Shown here: in pieces, positions 20,173 to 35,467 of the stretch | Numbering within the stretch: the first letter of the stretch is position 1 | How the letters are laid out: each line of letters begins with the position of its first letter | DNA from: a bacterium | Lineage (GTDB): Bacteria; Planctomycetota; JAFGQW01 | Reading direction: 5' to 3' | DNA: 64,000 nt | Assembly: GCA_030426805.1 (NCBI GenBank) | Contig: JAUHXU010000004.1 | Span: 46,792 to 110,791 of the forward strand | Notes under the pieces: generated by a model | What the model was told of the DNA's origin: nothing | Seen by the model: only the letters and a program-made list of their open reading frames with translations | Databases searched by the model: none | Translations under genes and position numbers: made by a program

Positions 20173-20868
20173 TCAGGCGCCGTCGGCGTCGGGGTCGGCG
20201 ACGATCGTGAACGCGGGATGGTCGAGCAACCACGACGCCGGAAACGCCGGATCGGGGGTCGCGCGACGCAGGCGACGGAGCGGTTCGCGTTTTTTGCGAC
20301 CGGTGACGAGCATCACGATCTCGCGCGCGGCCCGAATCTCCCGGAGGCCGAGCGTGATGCCGTGGCTCGGTGCGTCGCCGGCGAAGGACCGGGCGAGTCC
20401 GGCCCGCGTGTCCCGCGCGAGTGCGACGACGCGCGCCGGCGCGTCGATCGCGGATCCGGGCTCGTTGTAGCCGACGTGGCCGTTCGGTCCGAGGCCGAGC
20501 ACGACGAGGTCGGCACCGCCGAGCGCGTCGAGTGCGGCGACGTGGCGAGTGATCTCGCGGTCGGGCGACTCCGCGCCGCCGTCGAACAGATGGTCGCGGT
20601 CGGCACTGCGGGGCACGTGGTCGAGCAGCTGCGTCCGGAGGAAGCGGCGAAAGCTCCGCGGATCGTCCCGACCGACGCCGACCAACTCGTCGAGCTGGAA
20701 CACGTGTGCGTGCGACAGGTCGATTCCGCCCCTGCGGCTTCGCGCGACGAGTTCGGCGTAGAGGGGAATCGGGGTCGCGCCGGCCGGCAGCACGAGTCGC
20801 GCGTCCGGCCGATCGGCGATCACGCGTGCGACGACGTCGGCGACGGTGCGCACGCACGTCGCGGTCAT
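20173..20868 (-). CDS. nagB: glucosamine-6-phosphate deaminase
   Basis: LGLGPNGHVGYNEPGS matches the NagB/Pgl fold motif. The GYNEP variant favours NagB. ATG at 20868 overlaps the upstream gene by 4 nt. Confidence 0.65.
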   Translation of the reverse strand: MTATCVRTVADVVARVIADRPDARLVLPAGATPIPLYAELVARSRRGGIDLSHAHVFQLDELVGVGRDDPRSFRRFLRTQLLDHVPRSADRDHLFDGGAESPDREITRHVAALDALGGADLVVLGLGPNGHVGYNEPGSAIDAPARVVALARDTRAGLARSFAGDAPSHGITLGLREIRAAREIVMLVTGRKKREPLRRLRRATPDPAFPASWLLDHPAFTIVADPDADGA

Positions 20869-32509: not shown

Positions 32510-35467
32510 ATGTTCGATCGGTTTCGCGTACTCGTCGCGGTCCTGCTCCTGTCGACGGGGTCTTCGATCGCGACCGTCGCGCAAGGGCGAGCCCTGTTCG
32601 TGCGACACGGAAACCTCGTCCCGTCGTCGACCGCGTCGAACGACGCATCGTCGCTGATGCGCACGCTGCTCGCCGGGCCGAGCGGGAGCGAGCGACGGGC
32701 CGGGGTCACGACCGCGATCGCGCCCGGCACACGGCTGCTCGGGATCGCGACGGACGGCGGCCGCGTCGTCGTCGACGTGTCGGCGAGTTTCACGACGTCC
32801 GCGGACGCCGAACTGGCACTCGAGCAAATCGTGAAGTCGCTCGCGTCGCTCGGCTACGCCCAGTTCTCGGTCCGCACGCCGGATCCGGCGGCACCGAAAG
32901 CGTGGCTCGAAGTCGGCGCCGCGCCGCCGTCGACGACGCCGATCCTCGACTTGCCGCCGCCGCCGGTGCTGCCGAGCAAGGTCACCGGGGTCCTCACCGG
33001 CAAGACGATCGCGGTGTCGCCCGGCCACGGCTACTACTGGCACTCGTCGCTCGGCTGGACGACACAGCGCGGCAACATCGGCGGGCTGACCGAGGACATC
33101 CACACGAACGAGATCGCGATGGAGTGGGTGATCCCGTATCTCGAAAACGCCGGGGCGCGGGTGATCTCGTGCCGCGATCGCACGCGGAACACGAACGAGC
33201 ACATCGTCGACAACGACGGCGGCCCGGGCTACGTCGAGACCGGGAGCTGGGGACTCGGCGGCGGCGCCGGGTTCAACAGCGCGACCTACCGGTTCGCGAC
33301 GACGGCGGCGGCCGAGACGGCCCGTGCGACGTTCACGACGACCGTCGCCGCAGCCGGCGCCTACCCGGTGTGGATCGGTTACAAGGCGGGCACGAACCGC
33401 GCGACCGATGCGCGTGTTCTCGTCGAACACGCCGGTGGCACGTCGGAGGTGAAGATCGATCAGACCGCCGACGATCTGCGGCTTCGCTATCTCGGGACGT
33501 TCTGGTTCGATCCGGCGACGCCGGCGCGCGTGCACGTCTCGAACCAGTCGTCGCAGGTCGGTCGGGTCGTGATCGCCGATCACGTGCGCATCGGCGGCGG
33601 GCTCGGCTCGATCGCGCGGGGCGGCACGAGCAATCGCCCGCGCTGGCAGGAGGCGTCGCGCTACTGGACGCAGTTCGCGGGGGCGCCGTCGTCGGTCTGG
33701 AACTCGGTCAGCAGTGGCGAGGACAACTCCGACGACGTCACCGCCCGACCACGCTACGCGGAGTGGCGCGGGGCGAACGCGTTCGTGTCGATTCACACGA
33801 ATGCCGGCGGCGGCACCGGCACGTCGTCGTTCATCCACAATACGTCGCCGTCGGCCGGGTCGAGCGCGCTTCAGAACGCCGTGCACACGCAGCTGATCAG
33901 CGACATTCGCTCGCTCTACGACCCGGCGTGGACGGACCGCGGGAAGAAGACCGCGAACTTCGGCGAAGTGCGTGTCCTGAGCACGATGCCGGGCGTGCTG
34001 CTCGAGCTCGCGTTCCACGACGACCCGAACAAGAAGGACCACGTCTTCCTGCACGACCCGAACTTTCGGCAGGTGTGCGGACGGGCGATCGCCCGAGGCG
34101 TGATCCGTTACTTCAACCAGACCGCACCGTTTCCGCCGGAGCCACCGACGCGCGTCCGCGTGACCCAGGACGGCAACGGCGGGCTGCGCGTCAGTTGGGA
34201 CGCGGCGGCCGCGGCGAGCGGCTACGTCGTCGAAGAGAGCACCGACGGACTGAGCTTCTCGGGCGTCGGCATGACCGTGACCGGCACGACCTGGACGACG
34301 ACGCCGCTGCCGCACGGAGCGCTGCGCGGCTACCGCGTGCGCGCGACCAACGCCTCCGGTCAATCGCTGCCGACCGAGGTCGTCGTCGGCCGAACCGGGC
34401 CGACCGGCCGCGCCGACGTGCTGCTCGTCCAGGGATTCGACCGCCTCGAGAAGAACGTCAAGGAGCCCGACAACCGGCGCAACTACCTCGCTCGGTTCCT
34501 CGACGCGATCGGCCGCATCGCGGACTACTCGGTCGCGATCGATTCCGCGTCGAACGAGGCGCTCGCGACGAATCGCGTGCCGATCCAGAACTACCGCGCG
34601 GTCGTGTTCGCGCTGGGAGAGGAGTCCACGGCCGACGAGACGTTCTCGCTCACCGAGCAGAATCTCGTGCGCGCGTATCTGCAGATCGGGGGGCGCGTGT
34701 TCGTCAGCGGCGCGGAGATCGCGTGGGACCTCGACCAGCAGGGGAGCGCGACCGACCGCGCGTTCTACCGGACGTGGCTCGCGGCGAGCTACGTCAACGA
34801 CGACGCAAACGTCTATCGCGCCGGCCCCGCAGCCGGGTCCGCGTTCGCCGGGCTGCCCGACTTGACGTTCGACAACGGCACGGCGGGGACCTACGACGTC
34901 AACTACCCCGACTCGCTCGCGCCGAGCGGCACCGGGGCGAAGAACTCGCTGCTCTACCGCGGAACGTCGTTCGTCGCGGCGACCGAGCAGGTCAACGGCA
35001 ACGCGCGTGTGCTGAACTGGGGCTTTCCGTTCGAGACGATCACCGATCGCGCACTCGCCGGCCGCTACATGGACCGCGCGATCGACTTCCTGCTGCAACC
35101 GCGCGCGCTCGATGTCGTGCGTACCGCGACGCCGGGCGGCACGGTGCCGATCACGATCGAGCGACCGGCTCACGCGAGCGCCCAGTACGTGCTCGCCGCG
35201 AGCTTCTCGACCCAGCCCGGCATTCCGGTCGGCGGCGGTCGGACGGTGCCGCTCGTGCTCGACCCGCTCTTCGCGACGTCGTTCGGGTCCAGCGCCGGCG
35301 TCTTCCAGGGCTTCGTCGGTACCCTCGACGGATCCGGCCGTGCGAACGCACAGGTCAACTTGCCGAACCTGCCGATCCAGGGCCTGCGCTTCTACGTGAG
35401 CGGCGTCGTGTTGACCGGGCCGACGATCGTCGACGTCCTGCCGTGGCGGCGCGTCACGGTGCAGTGA
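32510..35467 (+). CDS. large secreted multi-domain protein: GerMN-like domain + N-acetylmuramoyl-L-alanine amidase (Amidase_3) + FN3-like + C-terminal beta-rich domain
   Basis: Signal peptide present. GerMN-like segment reads LLAGPSGSERRAGVTTAIAPGTRLLGIATDGGRVVVDVS. Amidase_3 motifs are VSPGHGY, VSIHTNAGGG and ELAFHDD. An FN3-like stretch follows (RVSWDAAAAASGYVVEES). Confidence 0.7.
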   Translation: MFDRFRVLVAVLLLSTGSSIATVAQGRALFVRHGNLVPSSTASNDASSLMRTLLAGPSGSERRAGVTTAIAPGTRLLGIATDGGRVVVDVSASFTTSADAELALEQIVKSLASLGYAQFSVRTPDPAAPKAWLEVGAAPPSTTPILDLPPPPVLPSKVTGVLTGKTIAVSPGHGYYWHSSLGWTTQRGNIGGLTEDIHTNEIAMEWVIPYLENAGARVISCRDRTRNTNEHIVDNDGGPGYVETGSWGLGGGAGFNSATYRFATTAAAETARATFTTTVAAAGAYPVWIGYKAGTNRATDARVLVEHAGGTSEVKIDQTADDLRLRYLGTFWFDPATPARVHVSNQSSQVGRVVIADHVRIGGGLGSIARGGTSNRPRWQEASRYWTQFAGAPSSVWNSVSSGEDNSDDVTARPRYAEWRGANAFVSIHTNAGGGTGTSSFIHNTSPSAGSSALQNAVHTQLISDIRSLYDPAWTDRGKKTANFGEVRVLSTMPGVLLELAFHDDPNKKDHVFLHDPNFRQVCGRAIARGVIRYFNQTAPFPPEPPTRVRVTQDGNGGLRVSWDAAAAASGYVVEESTDGLSFSGVGMTVTGTTWTTTPLPHGALRGYRVRATNASGQSLPTEVVVGRTGPTGRADVLLVQGFDRLEKNVKEPDNRRNYLARFLDAIGRIADYSVAIDSASNEALATNRVPIQNYRAVVFALGEESTADETFSLTEQNLVRAYLQIGGRVFVSGAEIAWDLDQQGSATDRAFYRTWLAASYVNDDANVYRAGPAAGSAFAGLPDLTFDNGTAGTYDVNYPDSLAPSGTGAKNSLLYRGTSFVAATEQVNGNARVLNWGFPFETITDRALAGRYMDRAIDFLLQPRALDVVRTATPGGTVPITIERPAHASAQYVLAASFSTQPGIPVGGGRTVPLVLDPLFATSFGSSAGVFQGFVGTLDGSGRANAQVNLPNLPIQGLRFYVSGVVLTGPTIVDVLPWRRVTVQ

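What the first reader, a model, noticed from the sequence alone, without database searches (positions are those of the whole stretch)
20173..35467. 15-kb amino-sugar / cell-wall salvage island combining NagB, GlcNAc kinase, NagZ, NamZ and amidases with HGSNAT-like and NAGPA-like proteins
Ten consecutive genes all act on GlcNAc/MurNAc-containing glycans: two Amidase_3 proteins, a GH10-like lipoprotein, a GH3 NagZ (fused to a beta-lactamase fold), NamZ/DUF1343 (fused to a transporter), a BadF-type GlcNAc kinase and NagB. Embedded between them are a DUF1624/HGSNAT-like transmembrane acetyltransferase and a NAGPA-like phosphodiester glycosidase. The classical MurQ/AnmK/AmpG recycling genes are absent within this window, so this looks like an alternative salvage route. 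Working hypothesis: the HGSNAT-like protein re-N-acetylates periplasmic GlcN residues of de-N-acetylated peptidoglycan or PNAG-like polymers using cytoplasmic acetyl-CoA, so that NagZ/NamZ can release monomers. These are then imported by the fused symporter and fed through the kinase and NagB. As far as I know this gene combination is not a described recycling pathway.
Basis: partly seen in the sequence, partly recalled or inferred. Interest (0 to 1): 0.85.

Follow-up and report, generated by a model that had tools for sequence, protein, structure and literature searches.

The report
Peptidoglycan salvage island with transporter-fused muramidase
This is a real gene cluster for taking bacterial cell wall apart from the chain ends and importing the sugars; most of it matches pathways already described in Bacillus subtilis and Tannerella forsythia, and the parts not yet described are a muramidase fused to its likely importer and two accessory genes that resemble lysosomal enzymes.

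Summary
Profile searches confirm every domain call: NagB, GHL10, two Amidase_3, HGSNAT/NagX-like, NAGPA, BadF kinase, GH3 fused to a beta-lactamase fold, and a symporter (SSF) fused to NamZ. There are nine genes in 20173-35467, not ten. A tenth cell-wall gene (18169-20154) lies just outside.

The claim that this pathway is undescribed is overstated.
- NagZ, an AmiE/YfeW-like domain and NamZ are the B. subtilis exo-lytic trio.
- The kinase is closest to a solved MurNAc/GlcNAc kinase.
- The GHL10 lipoprotein is a homologue of E. coli DigH, which cleaves peptide-free glycan.
- The HGSNAT-like protein belongs to the NagX/MurT family. Its transmembrane acetylation role was proposed in 2022 for free glucosamine.

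Synteny is mixed. The core BadF, GH3-bla, SSF-NamZ is conserved in a distant marine contig. Of the best 120 relatives of the fusion protein, 65 are SSF-bla-NamZ triple fusions. Neither the HGSNAT-like nor the NAGPA-like gene keeps this context in more distant relatives.

The HGSNAT-like protein retains all 11 functional HGSNAT residues, so acetyltransferase chemistry is likely. Its substrate is unknown.

Verdict: a new variant of a known kind, of moderate interest. The symporter-NamZ fusion is the best new lead.

The parts
18169..20154 (-). Secreted fusion protein: class-A beta-lactamase-like domain (motifs SLIK, SDN, KTG), PG_binding_1, and a Peptidase_S11 DD-carboxypeptidase domain (motifs SVTK, SGN, KTG). 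It lies 18 bp downstream of nagB on the same strand. Predicted to trim stem peptides.
   Evidence: Pfam Beta-lactamase2 3.6e-70, Peptidase_S11 1.9e-50, PG_binding_1 1.2e-13. Motifs located.
20173..20868 (-). NagB-like glucosamine-6-phosphate deaminase, cytoplasmic. Its start overlaps the GHL10 stop by 4 nt.
   Evidence: Pfam Glucosamine_iso 4.7e-26. NCBIfam nagB models score 147-163 bits, all below their equivalog cut-offs.
20865..22043 (-). GHL10 (DUF187) lipoprotein, a homologue of E. coli DigH (a hydrolase specific for peptide-free 'denuded' glycan) and of C. difficile Cwp19 (a lytic transglycosylase). Predicted to cut peptide-free glycan strands internally.
   Evidence: Pfam GHL10 4.7e-36. 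BLASTP against E. coli DigH: 25% identity over 264 aa, E=4e-20. Literature: PMC12288456, PMC6016235.
22044..22118 (.). Divergent promoter region between the GHL10 operon and the small amidase gene. The only sigma-70-like site found in the 20 kb scanned lies at 22039-22066 on the + strand, so its TTCACC hexamer starts 5 nt inside the GHL10 gene and outside this interval.
   Evidence: TTCACC-16-TATCAT. Sequence read.
22119..23231 (+). Amidase_3 lipoprotein (N-acetylmuramoyl-L-alanine amidase) with a C-terminal region of about 100 aa that has no Pfam match. The start is GTG 22119, preceded by GGGAGA; an alternative ATG at 22065 overlaps the -10 hexamer.
   Evidence: Pfam Amidase_3 3.3e-36. tblastn with E. 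coli AmiA E=3e-14. Sequence read.
23233..24579 (-). HGSNAT/NagX-superfamily transmembrane protein of 448 aa. It is a single-gene unit, convergent with the amidase gene and divergent from the NAGPA operon across 98 bp. It retains R6, R14, M21, N25, H39, D49, F52, F55, R87, R172 and E279, which correspond to HGSNAT R267, R275, M282, N286, H297, D307, F310, F313, R345, R372 and E499. Compared with the roughly 370-aa relatives it has about 75 extra residues (about 96-170) that contain two additional hydrophobic helices.
   Evidence: PDB HGSNAT E=3.4e-19 with alignment. NCBIfam NagX 131 bits against a cut-off of 480. Residue table. Hydropathy scan. Residue roles from PMC11199644.
24580..24677 (.). 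A 98-bp divergent intergenic region between the HGSNAT-like gene and the NAGPA-led operon. No operator shared with 22044-22118 was recognised.
   Evidence: Sequence read; scan.
24678..25871 (+). Secreted NAGPA/DUF2233 phosphodiester glycosidase plus a Golvesin_C module. It is the first gene of the five-gene operon. It carries the invariant DGGGS motif (residues 227-231, window 25356-25370) and an HPRT motif.
   Evidence: Pfam NAGPA 1.5e-40, Golvesin_C 1e-9. PDB 3OHG E=3e-15 and vertebrate NAGPA about 1e-9. Motifs located. Role of DGGGS from PMC13474241.
25907..26878 (+). BadF/BcrAD-type sugar kinase, cytoplasmic. Its closest solved relative is a dual MurNAc/GlcNAc kinase. Its end overlaps the next gene by 20 nt.
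   Evidence: Pfam 2.3e-25. NCBIfam NagK_SO3507 E=2.3e-28, below cut-off. PDB 8zo3 E=4.4e-24; T. forsythia MurK only 2.5e-4.
26859..29675 (+). Secreted two-enzyme fusion. The N-terminal part is a GH3 beta-N-acetylglucosaminidase (NagZ type) with the signature KHYPGHGDTSVDSH at residues 205-218 (window 27471-27512). The C-terminal part is a serine beta-lactamase-fold domain of the PBP4B/YfeW (AmiE-like) type, with SVTK at 644 and HTG at 886.
   Evidence: Pfam GH3 3e-87, GH3_C 2.2e-11, Beta-lactamase 8e-71. NCBIfam PBP4B 3.7e-53. E. coli YfeW 34.6% identity, E=3e-48. Same architecture as the characterised RmNag3 (PMC6987092).
29672..32422 (+). Sodium:solute symporter with about 14 predicted TM helices, then a Pro-rich linker, then a NamZ (GH171) exo-beta-N-acetylmuramidase domain. 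Its start overlaps the previous gene's stop by 4 nt. Predicted to release terminal MurNAc in the periplasm and import it.
   Evidence: Pfam SSF 6.7e-32, NamZ_N 6.3e-86, NamZ_C 3.6e-42. PDB 4K05 E=1.2e-75. Hydropathy scan. Fusion census.
32510..35467 (+). Large secreted amidase of 985 aa: GerMN (Germane), Golvesin_C, Amidase_3, fn3, and a C-terminal region of about 350 aa with no family match.
   Evidence: Pfam Golvesin_C 3.4e-23, Amidase_3 3.4e-14, Germane 1.2e-11.
17102..18166 (-). Class I/II aminotransferase-fold protein, 2 bp downstream of the DD-carboxypeptidase fusion on the same strand. It may be co-transcribed. No functional link to the island was shown.
   Evidence: Pfam Aminotran_1_2 2.4e-26.

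Best explanation
The island encodes a periplasmic line that takes peptidoglycan apart from the non-reducing end, coupled to import and cytoplasmic phosphorylation of the released amino sugars.

Inferred sequence of steps:
1. Two secreted or lipid-anchored Amidase_3 enzymes strip stem peptides. The DD-carboxypeptidase fusion trims peptides.
2. The DigH-like GHL10 lipoprotein cuts the resulting peptide-free glycan.
3. The GH3 NagZ domain removes the terminal GlcNAc. Its fused AmiE/YfeW-like domain removes the peptide from the MurNAc that this exposes.
4. The NamZ domain removes the terminal MurNAc. It is tethered to the outer face of a sodium:solute symporter, which then imports that sugar.
5. 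In the cytoplasm the BadF-type kinase makes the 6-phosphate and NagB feeds GlcN-6-P into glycolysis. MurQ and NagA must be encoded elsewhere.

Two accessory enzymes probably clear chemical blocks to this exo-lytic progress.
- The HGSNAT/NagX-like protein uses cytoplasmic acetyl-CoA to N-acetylate a periplasmic glucosamine. That sugar could be free GlcN or a terminal GlcN residue.
- The NAGPA-like enzyme hydrolyses a sugar-1-phosphodiester. A plausible target is the GlcNAc-1-P link that anchors wall polymers to MurNAc.

What is shown: domain identities, conserved motifs, gene order and gene overlaps, fusion patterns, and conservation of the core. What is inferred: every substrate assignment, the topology, and both accessory roles.
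For: - All domain calls are above Pfam thresholds.
- The NagZ signature motif and the SxxK and HTG motifs are present.
- The NamZ domain matches the B. fragilis DUF1343 structure at E=1e-75.
- The AmiE-like domain is 34.6% identical to E. coli YfeW, whose gene lies immediately downstream of murQ-murP on the same strand.
- The GHL10 protein matches DigH at E=4e-20.
- B. subtilis NagZ, AmiE and NamZ together digest intact peptidoglycan (PMC8054146).
- Fusions link the modules: GH3-bla here and in RmNag3 (PMC6987092); SSF-NamZ here; SSF-bla-NamZ in 65 of the 120 best hits, always in that order.
- The marine contig L086 keeps BadF, GH3-bla and SSF-NamZ in one same-strand block, with an alanine racemase gene between the kinase and GH3-bla, at 37-45% identity for GH3-bla and SSF-NamZ and 23% for the kinase.
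- Overlapping stop and start codons join the kinase, GH3-bla and SSF-NamZ genes.
- The HGSNAT-like protein keeps all 11 residues that bind acetyl-CoA or GlcN or that catalyse transfer (PMC11199644).
- The NAGPA-like protein keeps the invariant DGGGS motif (PMC13474241).
- Relatives of the HGSNAT-like gene recur next to peptidoglycan genes: Peptidase_S13 in 40 of 79 genomes, SLT, and a T. forsythia-like NamZ/SpoIID/MFS/amidase cluster in L041.
Against: - No MurQ or NagA lies in the window, so the cytoplasmic route is incomplete here.
- Every equivalog-level NCBIfam cut-off is missed (NagB, NagK, NagX, NagZ, PBP4B), so the specificities are extrapolated.
- The specificity of the symporter is unknown. 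Its closest named model is an uncharacterised YidK-type symporter.
- The HGSNAT-like and NAGPA-like genes do not keep this neighbourhood in more distant relatives.
- The 14-TM topology that places NamZ in the periplasm comes from a crude hydropathy scan.
- No regulator or shared operator was found.
Confidence: 0.7

Rival explanations
1. The HGSNAT-like protein re-N-acetylates GlcN residues that are still part of de-N-acetylated peptidoglycan or PNAG-like polymer, so that NagZ and NamZ can proceed.
For: - Human HGSNAT acts on a terminal glucosaminide of a polymer and is assayed on MU-beta-GlcN, a beta-glucosaminide. All of its catalytic and GlcN-binding residues are conserved here.
- A GlcN-containing disaccharide released from B. 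subtilis peptidoglycan (GlcN-MurNAc) is reported to resist both BsNagZ and BsNamZ (10.1101/2021.12.02.470905). A real block therefore exists that such an enzyme could remove.
- The gene is transcribed divergently from the NagZ/NamZ operon.
Against: - There is no direct evidence.
- Published genetics for NagX concern free glucosamine (PMC9007349).
- Synteny with NagZ/NamZ is rare: 4 of 80 genomes have any other cluster gene above 30% identity.
- The island has no polysaccharide deacetylase or PNAG genes.
Confidence: 0.2
2. The HGSNAT-like protein is an ordinary NagX. It acetylates free periplasmic glucosamine to GlcNAc, which is then imported and phosphorylated. It serves general amino-sugar scavenging rather than glycan processing.
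For: - The NCBIfam NagX model is the best named hit, E=4.8e-38.
- Fitness data from five bacteria tie NagX to glucosamine use (PMC9007349).
- NagK-like and NagB-like genes lie in the same island.
Against: - The score of 131 bits is far below the NagX equivalog cut-off of 480.
- This protein belongs to a subgroup of about 450 aa with two extra helices.
- Its relatives sit beside peptidoglycan enzymes rather than nag operons.
Confidence: 0.3
3. The HGSNAT-like protein is a MurT-type MurNAc importer, like the T. forsythia protein, and not an enzyme.
For: - TfMurT is reported to be a distant relative of NagX, and its gene lies next to namZ1, murK and murQ (PMC9007349; 10.1101/2021.12.02.470905).
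- The Bacteroidota locus L041 has a homologue inside a NamZ/SpoIID/MFS/amidase cluster.
Against: - The island already has a symporter fused to NamZ.
- All 11 acetyltransferase residues are kept, including in the L041 homologue.
- Structural work on HGSNAT concludes that the substrate is not transported (PMC11199644).
- The TfMurT sequence itself could not be obtained for comparison.
Confidence: 0.1
4. The HGSNAT-like and NAGPA-like genes are lineage-specific neighbours with no functional tie to the NagZ/NamZ core. The island is simply the known exo-lytic pathway plus bystanders.
For: - Neighbourhoods are not conserved. The HGSNAT-like gene sits among unrelated genes in the Rhodothermales MAG and two metagenome contigs examined.
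- NAGPA homologues at 39-44% identity sit among unrelated genes.
- The distant core locus L086 lacks both genes.
Against: - The NAGPA-like gene is the first gene of the operon, 36 bp upstream of the kinase gene.
- It shares a Golvesin_C module with the large amidase. In L092 a GHL10 protein also carries this module, 4 kb from an NAGPA homologue.
- The 84%- and 77%-identical homologues of the two genes are both reported on a contig of the same length, 5,869 bp. This suggests adjacency is kept in a related species (inference only).
Confidence: 0.25
5. The island degrades chitin, chitosan or PNAG rather than peptidoglycan.
For: - RmNag3, which has the same GH3-bla architecture, cleaves chito-oligosaccharides (PMC6987092).
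- NagX genes are often found in chitin operons (PMC9007349).
Against: - There is no GH18, GH19, GH20, GH46 or PNAG hydrolase in the window.
- NamZ, two MurNAc-L-Ala amidases, a DD-carboxypeptidase, PG_binding_1 and a DigH-like enzyme are all specific for peptidoglycan.
Confidence: 0.07

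Closest known systems
B. subtilis murQ-murR-murP-amiE-nagZ-namZ muropeptide rescue operon (Litzinger 2010; Mueller 2021, PMC8054146)
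   Same: It has the same three exo-acting enzymes: GH3 NagZ, a beta-lactamase-fold AmiE-type domain, and GH171 NamZ. These act in turn from the non-reducing end, and the released monosaccharides are taken up and phosphorylated at C6.
   Different: - NagZ and the AmiE-like domain are fused here.
- NamZ is fused to a sodium:solute symporter, in place of a separate PTS transporter (MurP).
- Phosphorylation is by a soluble BadF-type kinase.
- MurQ and MurR are not in the window.
- The host is a high-GC bacterium of undetermined taxon that encodes lipoproteins.
- Extra amidases, a DigH-like enzyme, an HGSNAT-like protein and an NAGPA-like protein are present.
T. forsythia namZ1-murT-murK-murQ/ampG peptidoglycan salvage cluster (10.1101/2021.12.02.470905)
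   Same: NamZ, a BadF-fold sugar kinase and an HGSNAT-superfamily membrane protein (MurT, per PMC9007349) are encoded together for scavenging peptidoglycan sugars. The Bacteroidota locus L041 has a comparable arrangement.
   Different: - The kinase here is much closer to C. acetobutylicum MurK (E=4e-24) than to TfMurK (E=2.5e-4).
- There is no AmpG, MurQ or SpoIID/LytB here.
- The membrane protein belongs to a different subgroup, about 450 aa long.
NagX, the proposed transmembrane glucosamine N-acetyltransferase (Shewanella SO_3504 family; Price et al. 2022, PMC9007349), and human HGSNAT
   Same: It has the same fold family. It has the same catalytic His-Asp dyad, oxyanion Asn, acetyl-CoA pore residues and GlcN-binding Arg and Glu.
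   Different: - It scores below the NagX equivalog cut-off, 131 against 480 bits.
- It has two extra helices.
- It lacks the luminal domain and TM1 of HGSNAT.
- Its context is peptidoglycan rather than chitin or heparan sulfate.
RmNag3 of Rhodothermus marinus (PMC6987092)
   Same: It has the same three-part architecture: GH3 domain 1, GH3 domain 2 and a beta-lactamase domain, with a signal peptide. It is a characterised beta-N-acetylglucosaminidase.
   Different: RmNag3 is not encoded next to NamZ or a symporter. The activity of its beta-lactamase domain was not tested.
E. coli DigH (YddW) and C. difficile Cwp19 (GHL10 family)
   Same: The catalytic domain is homologous (E=4e-20 to DigH). The gene sits beside amidases that would generate peptide-free glycan.
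   Different: Identity is only 25%. The bond cleaved is unknown: DigH is described as a hydrolase and Cwp19 as a lytic transglycosylase.

Membership tests
NamZ / CAZy GH171 exo-beta-N-acetylmuramidase | Two-domain DUF1343 fold (NamZ_N plus NamZ_C) homologous to the B. fragilis BF0371/BF0379 structures | tested here: met
   Pfam NamZ_N 287 bits and NamZ_C 145 bits, against cut-offs of 27 and 25. PDB 4K05 E=1.2e-75 and 4JJA E=8.8e-64.
NamZ / CAZy GH171 exo-beta-N-acetylmuramidase | Hydrolysis of non-reducing terminal beta-1,4-MurNAc (pNP-MurNAc, MurNAc-GlcNAc) | not testable with these tools
   Needs an enzyme assay.
GH3 NagZ-type beta-N-acetylglucosaminidase | GH3 N-terminal domain with the signature K-H-[FI]-P-G-[HL]-G-x4-D-[ST]-H (Asp-His dyad). 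The motif is quoted from the analyst's own knowledge of the NagZ literature. | tested here: met
   Pfam Glyco_hydro_3 293 bits. KHYPGHGDTSVDSH at residues 205-218, with Y in place of F/I. The NCBIfam NagZ equivalog PRK05337 scores 155 bits, below its cut-off of 207.
AmiE / YfeW (PBP4B) beta-lactamase-fold exo-MurNAc-L-Ala amidase | Serine beta-lactamase fold with SxxK and a [KH][ST]G triad, and homology to YfeW/AmiE | tested here: met
   Pfam Beta-lactamase 239 bits. SVTK at 644 and HTG at 886. 34.6% identity to E. coli YfeW, E=3e-48. The PBP4B equivalog cut-off is not reached, 181 against 385 bits.
AmiE / YfeW (PBP4B) beta-lactamase-fold exo-MurNAc-L-Ala amidase | Amidase activity on MurNAc-peptides | not testable with these tools
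   Needs an enzyme assay. The function of YfeW itself is not settled.
NagX (NCBIfam NF046061 equivalog) | Score at or above the curated equivalog cut-off | tested here: not met
   131.2 bits against a cut-off of 480. It is a homologue, not an equivalog.
HGSNAT catalytic-domain superfamily (transmembrane acetyl-CoA:glucosaminide N-acetyltransferase) | Conserved His-Asp dyad (H297, D307), oxyanion N286, acetyl-CoA pore residues (R267, R275, M282, F310, F313, R345) and GlcN-binding R372 and E499 | tested here: met
   All 11 align to identical residues in the window protein and in 15 bacterial homologues. Residue roles are from PMC11199644.
HGSNAT catalytic-domain superfamily (transmembrane acetyl-CoA:glucosaminide N-acetyltransferase) | Acetyl-CoA-dependent N-acetylation of a glucosaminide across the membrane | not testable with these tools
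   Needs a proteoliposome or membrane assay.
NAGPA / DUF2233 phosphodiester glycosidase | DUF2233 catalytic core with the invariant DGGGS loop (catalytic Asp) | tested here: met
   Pfam NAGPA 139.6 bits against a cut-off of 25. DGGGS at residues 227-231. PDB 3OHG E=3e-15 and vertebrate NAGPA about 1e-9.
MurK / NagK BadF-type amino-sugar 6-kinase | BcrAD_BadFG ATPase fold and homology to characterised MurNAc/GlcNAc kinases | tested here: met
   Pfam 90 bits. PDB 8zo3, a MurNAc/GlcNAc kinase, E=4.4e-24. The NagK_SO3507 equivalog cut-off is not reached, 99.5 against 370 bits. Sugar specificity was not tested.
B. subtilis-type MurNAc catabolic operon | MurQ etherase and a MurNAc transporter (MurP) encoded with the hydrolases | tested here: not met
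   There is no tblastn hit for E. coli MurQ, MurP or MurR at E<=0.01. There is no SIS-domain protein among the 47 of 48 called genes that were scanned.
GHL10 / DigH-Cwp19 peptidoglycan glycan-strand cleaving enzymes | PF02638 domain and homology to DigH | tested here: met
   Pfam GHL10 124.9 bits. DigH E=4e-20.

The most novel reading that the evidence does not exclude
The periplasm of this bacterium would run a lysosome-like exo-glycan disassembly line in which two 'unblocking' enzymes have the same logic as their human counterparts.
- An HGSNAT-type enzyme passes an acetyl group from cytoplasmic acetyl-CoA onto a terminal GlcN of de-N-acetylated peptidoglycan, so that NagZ can cleave it. This parallels HGSNAT acting before NAGLU.
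- An NAGPA-type 'uncovering' enzyme removes GlcNAc-1-phosphate-linked wall polymers from MurNAc, so that NamZ can proceed.
- The released MurNAc is handed directly from the tethered NamZ domain to its fused symporter.
Probability: 0.12. Interest if true: 0.75.

Novelty: new variant of a known kind. Interest (0 to 1): 0.45.

Why it matters
Phyla such as Gemmatimonadota, Rhodothermota, Acidobacteriota and Planctomycetota often lack the textbook AmpG and MurP routes. How they re-import cell-wall sugars is not established.

The symporter-NamZ and symporter-AmiE-like-NamZ fusions name a concrete candidate MurNAc/GlcNAc importer. They suggest that the exo-muramidase passes its product straight to the transporter. 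This can be tested by complementation in E. coli.

The island also offers a peptidoglycan context in which to settle what the bacterial HGSNAT/NagX/MurT family does biochemically, enzyme or transporter. It also gives a first testable substrate idea for bacterial NAGPA-like proteins.

None of this overturns current understanding. It extends a known pathway.

Tried and rejected
- **Synteny anchored on the HGSNAT-like gene.** tblastn with all island proteins found only 4 loci with any other island gene above 30% identity within 10 kb (L038, L041, L056, L074); two more had only weak hits near 27%. Conserved whole-island synteny is therefore rejected.
- **Metagenome scan with the NAGPA-like protein.** It returned only two 24%-identity hits and was uninformative.
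- **Contexts of five NAGPA homologues.** No NagZ/NamZ genes were nearby.
- **Shared operator in the two divergent intergenic regions.** Only short TGATAC-like strings were seen, which is not convincing.
- **Pairwise comparison of the two Golvesin_C modules.** E=0.04, so they are not recent duplicates.
- **Das et al. 2013 on bacterial DUF2233.** The paper is not held in the library.
- **TfMurT and B. subtilis AmiE sequences.** Neither could be obtained, so direct comparisons were not possible.
- **One look-up (P0237).** It returned nothing.
- **Chitin or PNAG utilisation.** Considered and rejected, because no chitinase or PNAG genes are present.

Full report
**Gene map**

The window is about 71% G+C, so mechanical ORF lists are full of shadow frames. 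Third-position GC and a codon log-likelihood model give nine genes in 20173-35467. They fall into three transcription units.
- Leftward: GHL10 (20865-22043), then NagB (20173-20868, 4-nt overlap), then a DD-carboxypeptidase fusion (18169-20154, 18-bp gap). An aminotransferase-fold gene (17102-18166) may follow.
- Rightward: a single Amidase_3 lipoprotein gene (22119-23231). It is divergent from GHL10 across 75 bp. That region overlaps the only sigma-70-like site found in the 20 kb scanned, at 22039-22066.
- Leftward: a single HGSNAT-like gene (23233-24579). It is divergent, across 98 bp, from a rightward five-gene operon.
- The five-gene operon is NAGPA-like (24678-25871), BadF kinase (25907-26878), GH3-beta-lactamase fusion (26859-29675), symporter-NamZ fusion (29672-32422) and a large amidase (32510-35467). 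The kinase, GH3-bla and symporter-NamZ genes overlap by 20 and 4 nt, which suggests translational coupling.
- The flanks are housekeeping genes: guaB, guaA, a CotH-like gene and lysA.

**The observation**

Three corrections apply.
- There are nine genes in the interval, not ten.
- 'GH10-like' is the GHL10/DUF187 family, not CAZy GH10.
- The DD-carboxypeptidase fusion just outside the interval belongs with the island.

No MurQ, MurP or MurR homologue is found by tblastn. No SIS, NagA, AnmK or AmpG-type protein appears among the 47 of 48 called genes that were scanned. The source is a metagenome-assembled contig of at least 698,920 bp. Absence from the window therefore says little about the genome.

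**What the core is**

- *NagZ.* The GH3 domain carries the NagZ signature KHYPGHGDTSVDSH.
- *AmiE/YfeW-like domain.* The C-terminal domain of the same protein is a serine beta-lactamase fold (SVTK, HTG). It is 34.6% identical to E. coli YfeW/PBP4B (E=3e-48). The yfeW gene lies immediately downstream of murQ-murP on the same strand.
- *Known architecture.* GH3 plus a beta-lactamase domain is the architecture of Rhodothermus RmNag3, a characterised beta-N-acetylglucosaminidase (PMC6987092).
- *NamZ.* The NamZ domain matches the B. fragilis DUF1343 structures at E=1e-75.
- *Known pathway.* In B. subtilis, NagZ, the beta-lactamase-fold amidase AmiE and NamZ are encoded together. They digest intact peptidoglycan jointly from the non-reducing end (PMC8054146). 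That AmiE has this fold comes from my own knowledge, and I could not obtain its sequence for a direct comparison.
- *Kinase.* Its best solved relative is a MurNAc/GlcNAc kinase (8zo3, E=4e-24).
- *GHL10.* The lipoprotein is homologous to E. coli DigH (E=4e-20), which degrades the peptide-free glycans left by amidases (PMC12288456). The same domain in C. difficile Cwp19 is a lytic transglycosylase (PMC6016235).

Together with the two Amidase_3 proteins and the DD-carboxypeptidase, this is a coherent system for degrading peptide-free glycan. It is not an undescribed pathway.

**Fusions and conservation of the core**

A search with the symporter-NamZ protein found 2,534 relatives at E<=1e-10. Among the best 120 hits:
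- 51 are stand-alone symporters of about 503 aa, 54-65% identical to the symporter half;
- 4 are SSF-NamZ fusions;
- 65 are SSF-beta-lactamase-NamZ triple fusions, always in that order. One carries the name Granulicella paludicola.

The marine contig L086 encodes BadF, an alanine racemase, GH3-bla (936 aa) and SSF-NamZ (850 aa) in one same-strand block. Identity to the window proteins is 37-45% for GH3-bla and SSF-NamZ and 23% for the kinase.

So NagZ, the AmiE-like domain, NamZ and the symporter are linked by fusion in several combinations and are syntenic with the kinase. This is the strongest evidence that the symporter imports what the exo-enzymes release.

A hydropathy scan suggests about 14 helices followed by a Pro-rich linker. 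That would place NamZ outside the membrane (this is an inference). No paper in the searchable library links a symporter with NamZ, DUF1343 or GH171.

**The HGSNAT-like protein**

It matches human HGSNAT structures at E=3e-19 and the NCBIfam NagX model at E=4.8e-38, but far below the equivalog cut-off.

Using the residue roles from the cryo-EM study (PMC11199644), all 11 key positions are identical in the window protein and in 15 diverse bacterial homologues.
- Acetyl-CoA pore: R267, R275, M282, F310, F313, R345.
- Oxyanion: N286.
- Catalytic dyad: H297-D307.
- GlcN binding: R372, E499.

Acetyltransferase chemistry is therefore likely.

The idea that such a protein uses cytoplasmic acetyl-CoA to N-acetylate periplasmic glucosamine was published for NagX from fitness data (PMC9007349). 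That paper also reports that NagX is distantly related to the T. forsythia MurNAc transporter MurT, whose gene sits beside namZ1, murK and murQ.

That variant has a rationale. A GlcN-containing disaccharide released from B. subtilis peptidoglycan (GlcN-MurNAc) is reported to resist BsNagZ and BsNamZ. HGSNAT itself acts on terminal residues. There is no direct evidence for it.

**Synteny of the accessory genes**

In 80 species-representative genomes anchored on this gene, almost none has other island genes within 10 kb. The contexts seen were these.
- In a Rhodothermales MAG and two metagenome contigs the gene sits among unrelated genes, once beside an SLT lytic transglycosylase.
- In 40 of 79 genomes, mostly Gemmatimonadaceae, it lies 12 bp upstream of a Peptidase_S13 (PBP4-type) gene.
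- In the Bacteroidota locus L041 it lies in a T. forsythia-like cluster with an SSS symporter (48% identical to the window's), a mandelate-racemase/enolase-family (MR_MLE) protein, SpoIID, two MFS transporters, NamZ and an amidase.
- In L038 it lies beside a NagB-PIG-L fusion, an SGSH-like sulfatase and a GH3/bla protein.

The family therefore recurs near cell-wall and amino-sugar genes, but the specific arrangement in the window belongs to this lineage.

The NAGPA-like protein keeps the invariant DGGGS loop (PMC13474241). Its homologues at 39-44% identity sit in unrelated contexts. One of them is 4 kb from a GHL10 protein that also carries Golvesin_C.

Within the window its operon position is good local evidence of co-expression: it is the first gene, 36 bp before the kinase gene. 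A role in removing sugar-1-phosphate-linked wall polymers from MurNAc is my own inference and is untested.

**Verdict**

The island is real and functionally coherent. It is best read as a variant of the known exo-lytic peptidoglycan salvage route, in which enzymes are fused to each other and to the importer. It carries two lineage-specific accessory enzymes whose substrates are unknown.

The symporter-NamZ family, and the question of what the bacterial HGSNAT-like proteins do next to peptidoglycan enzymes, are worth following up.

Noticed in passing
window 15035-17095; L093 3741-5807 and L094 3681-5801: A CotH kinase-like gene lies 7.6 kb from the NAGPA-like gene in the window. In two unrelated contigs a 48%-identical CotH lies about 4.3 kb from a 41%-identical NAGPA homologue. 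This recurrent proximity has no explanation.
   Followed up: partly
L038 4223-16459: A Gemmatimonadota locus encodes, in order, a TonB-dependent receptor, an amidohydrolase, an HGSNAT-like protein, a NagB+PIG-L fusion, an SGSH-like N-sulfoglucosamine sulfohydrolase and a GH3/beta-lactamase protein. It resembles a bacterial version of the lysosomal heparan-sulfate degradation route.
   Followed up: partly
L025-L081 (40 of 79 loci), e.g. L077 9139-11902: In Gemmatimonadaceae the HGSNAT-like gene sits about 12 bp upstream of a Peptidase_S13 (DacB/PBP4-type) gene on the same strand, downstream of a cytochrome c oxidase operon. This suggests a housekeeping cell-wall role for that subgroup.
   Followed up: partly
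window 18169-20154: One secreted protein combines a class-A beta-lactamase-like domain (SLIK, SDN, KTG; no obvious ExxLN) with PG_binding_1 and a Peptidase_S11 DD-carboxypeptidase domain.
   Followed up: partly
L087 10001-13843 and 64 other proteins (P0131-P0238): Triple fusions of 1,216-1,459 aa, SSF symporter then beta-lactamase-fold domain then NamZ, are common in metagenomes and in at least one named Acidobacterium, Granulicella paludicola. No description was found in the searchable literature.
   Followed up: partly
window 35531-36856: A 441-aa protein with a signal-peptide-like N-terminus and very high third-position GC has no Pfam match. It is convergent with the end of the island.
   Followed up: no
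window 40703-43579, 53411-54379, 59475-60386: Other envelope-related genes lie further along the window: a 958-aa PTPS_related/PMT_2 membrane protein with a sulfatase domain, a VCA0040-like undecaprenyl-phosphate translocase, and an FGE-sulfatase protein.
   Followed up: no
window 1872-4790: Two sigma-54-dependent activators lie in tandem. The second has a FleQ-like receiver domain. A PP2C phosphatase and an HD-domain protein are adjacent.
   Followed up: no
L092 14899-16500: A Planctomycetes GHL10 protein carries a C-terminal Golvesin_C module. The same module is found on the window's NAGPA-like protein and large amidase, which suggests that it is a cell-wall glycan-binding domain.
   Followed up: no
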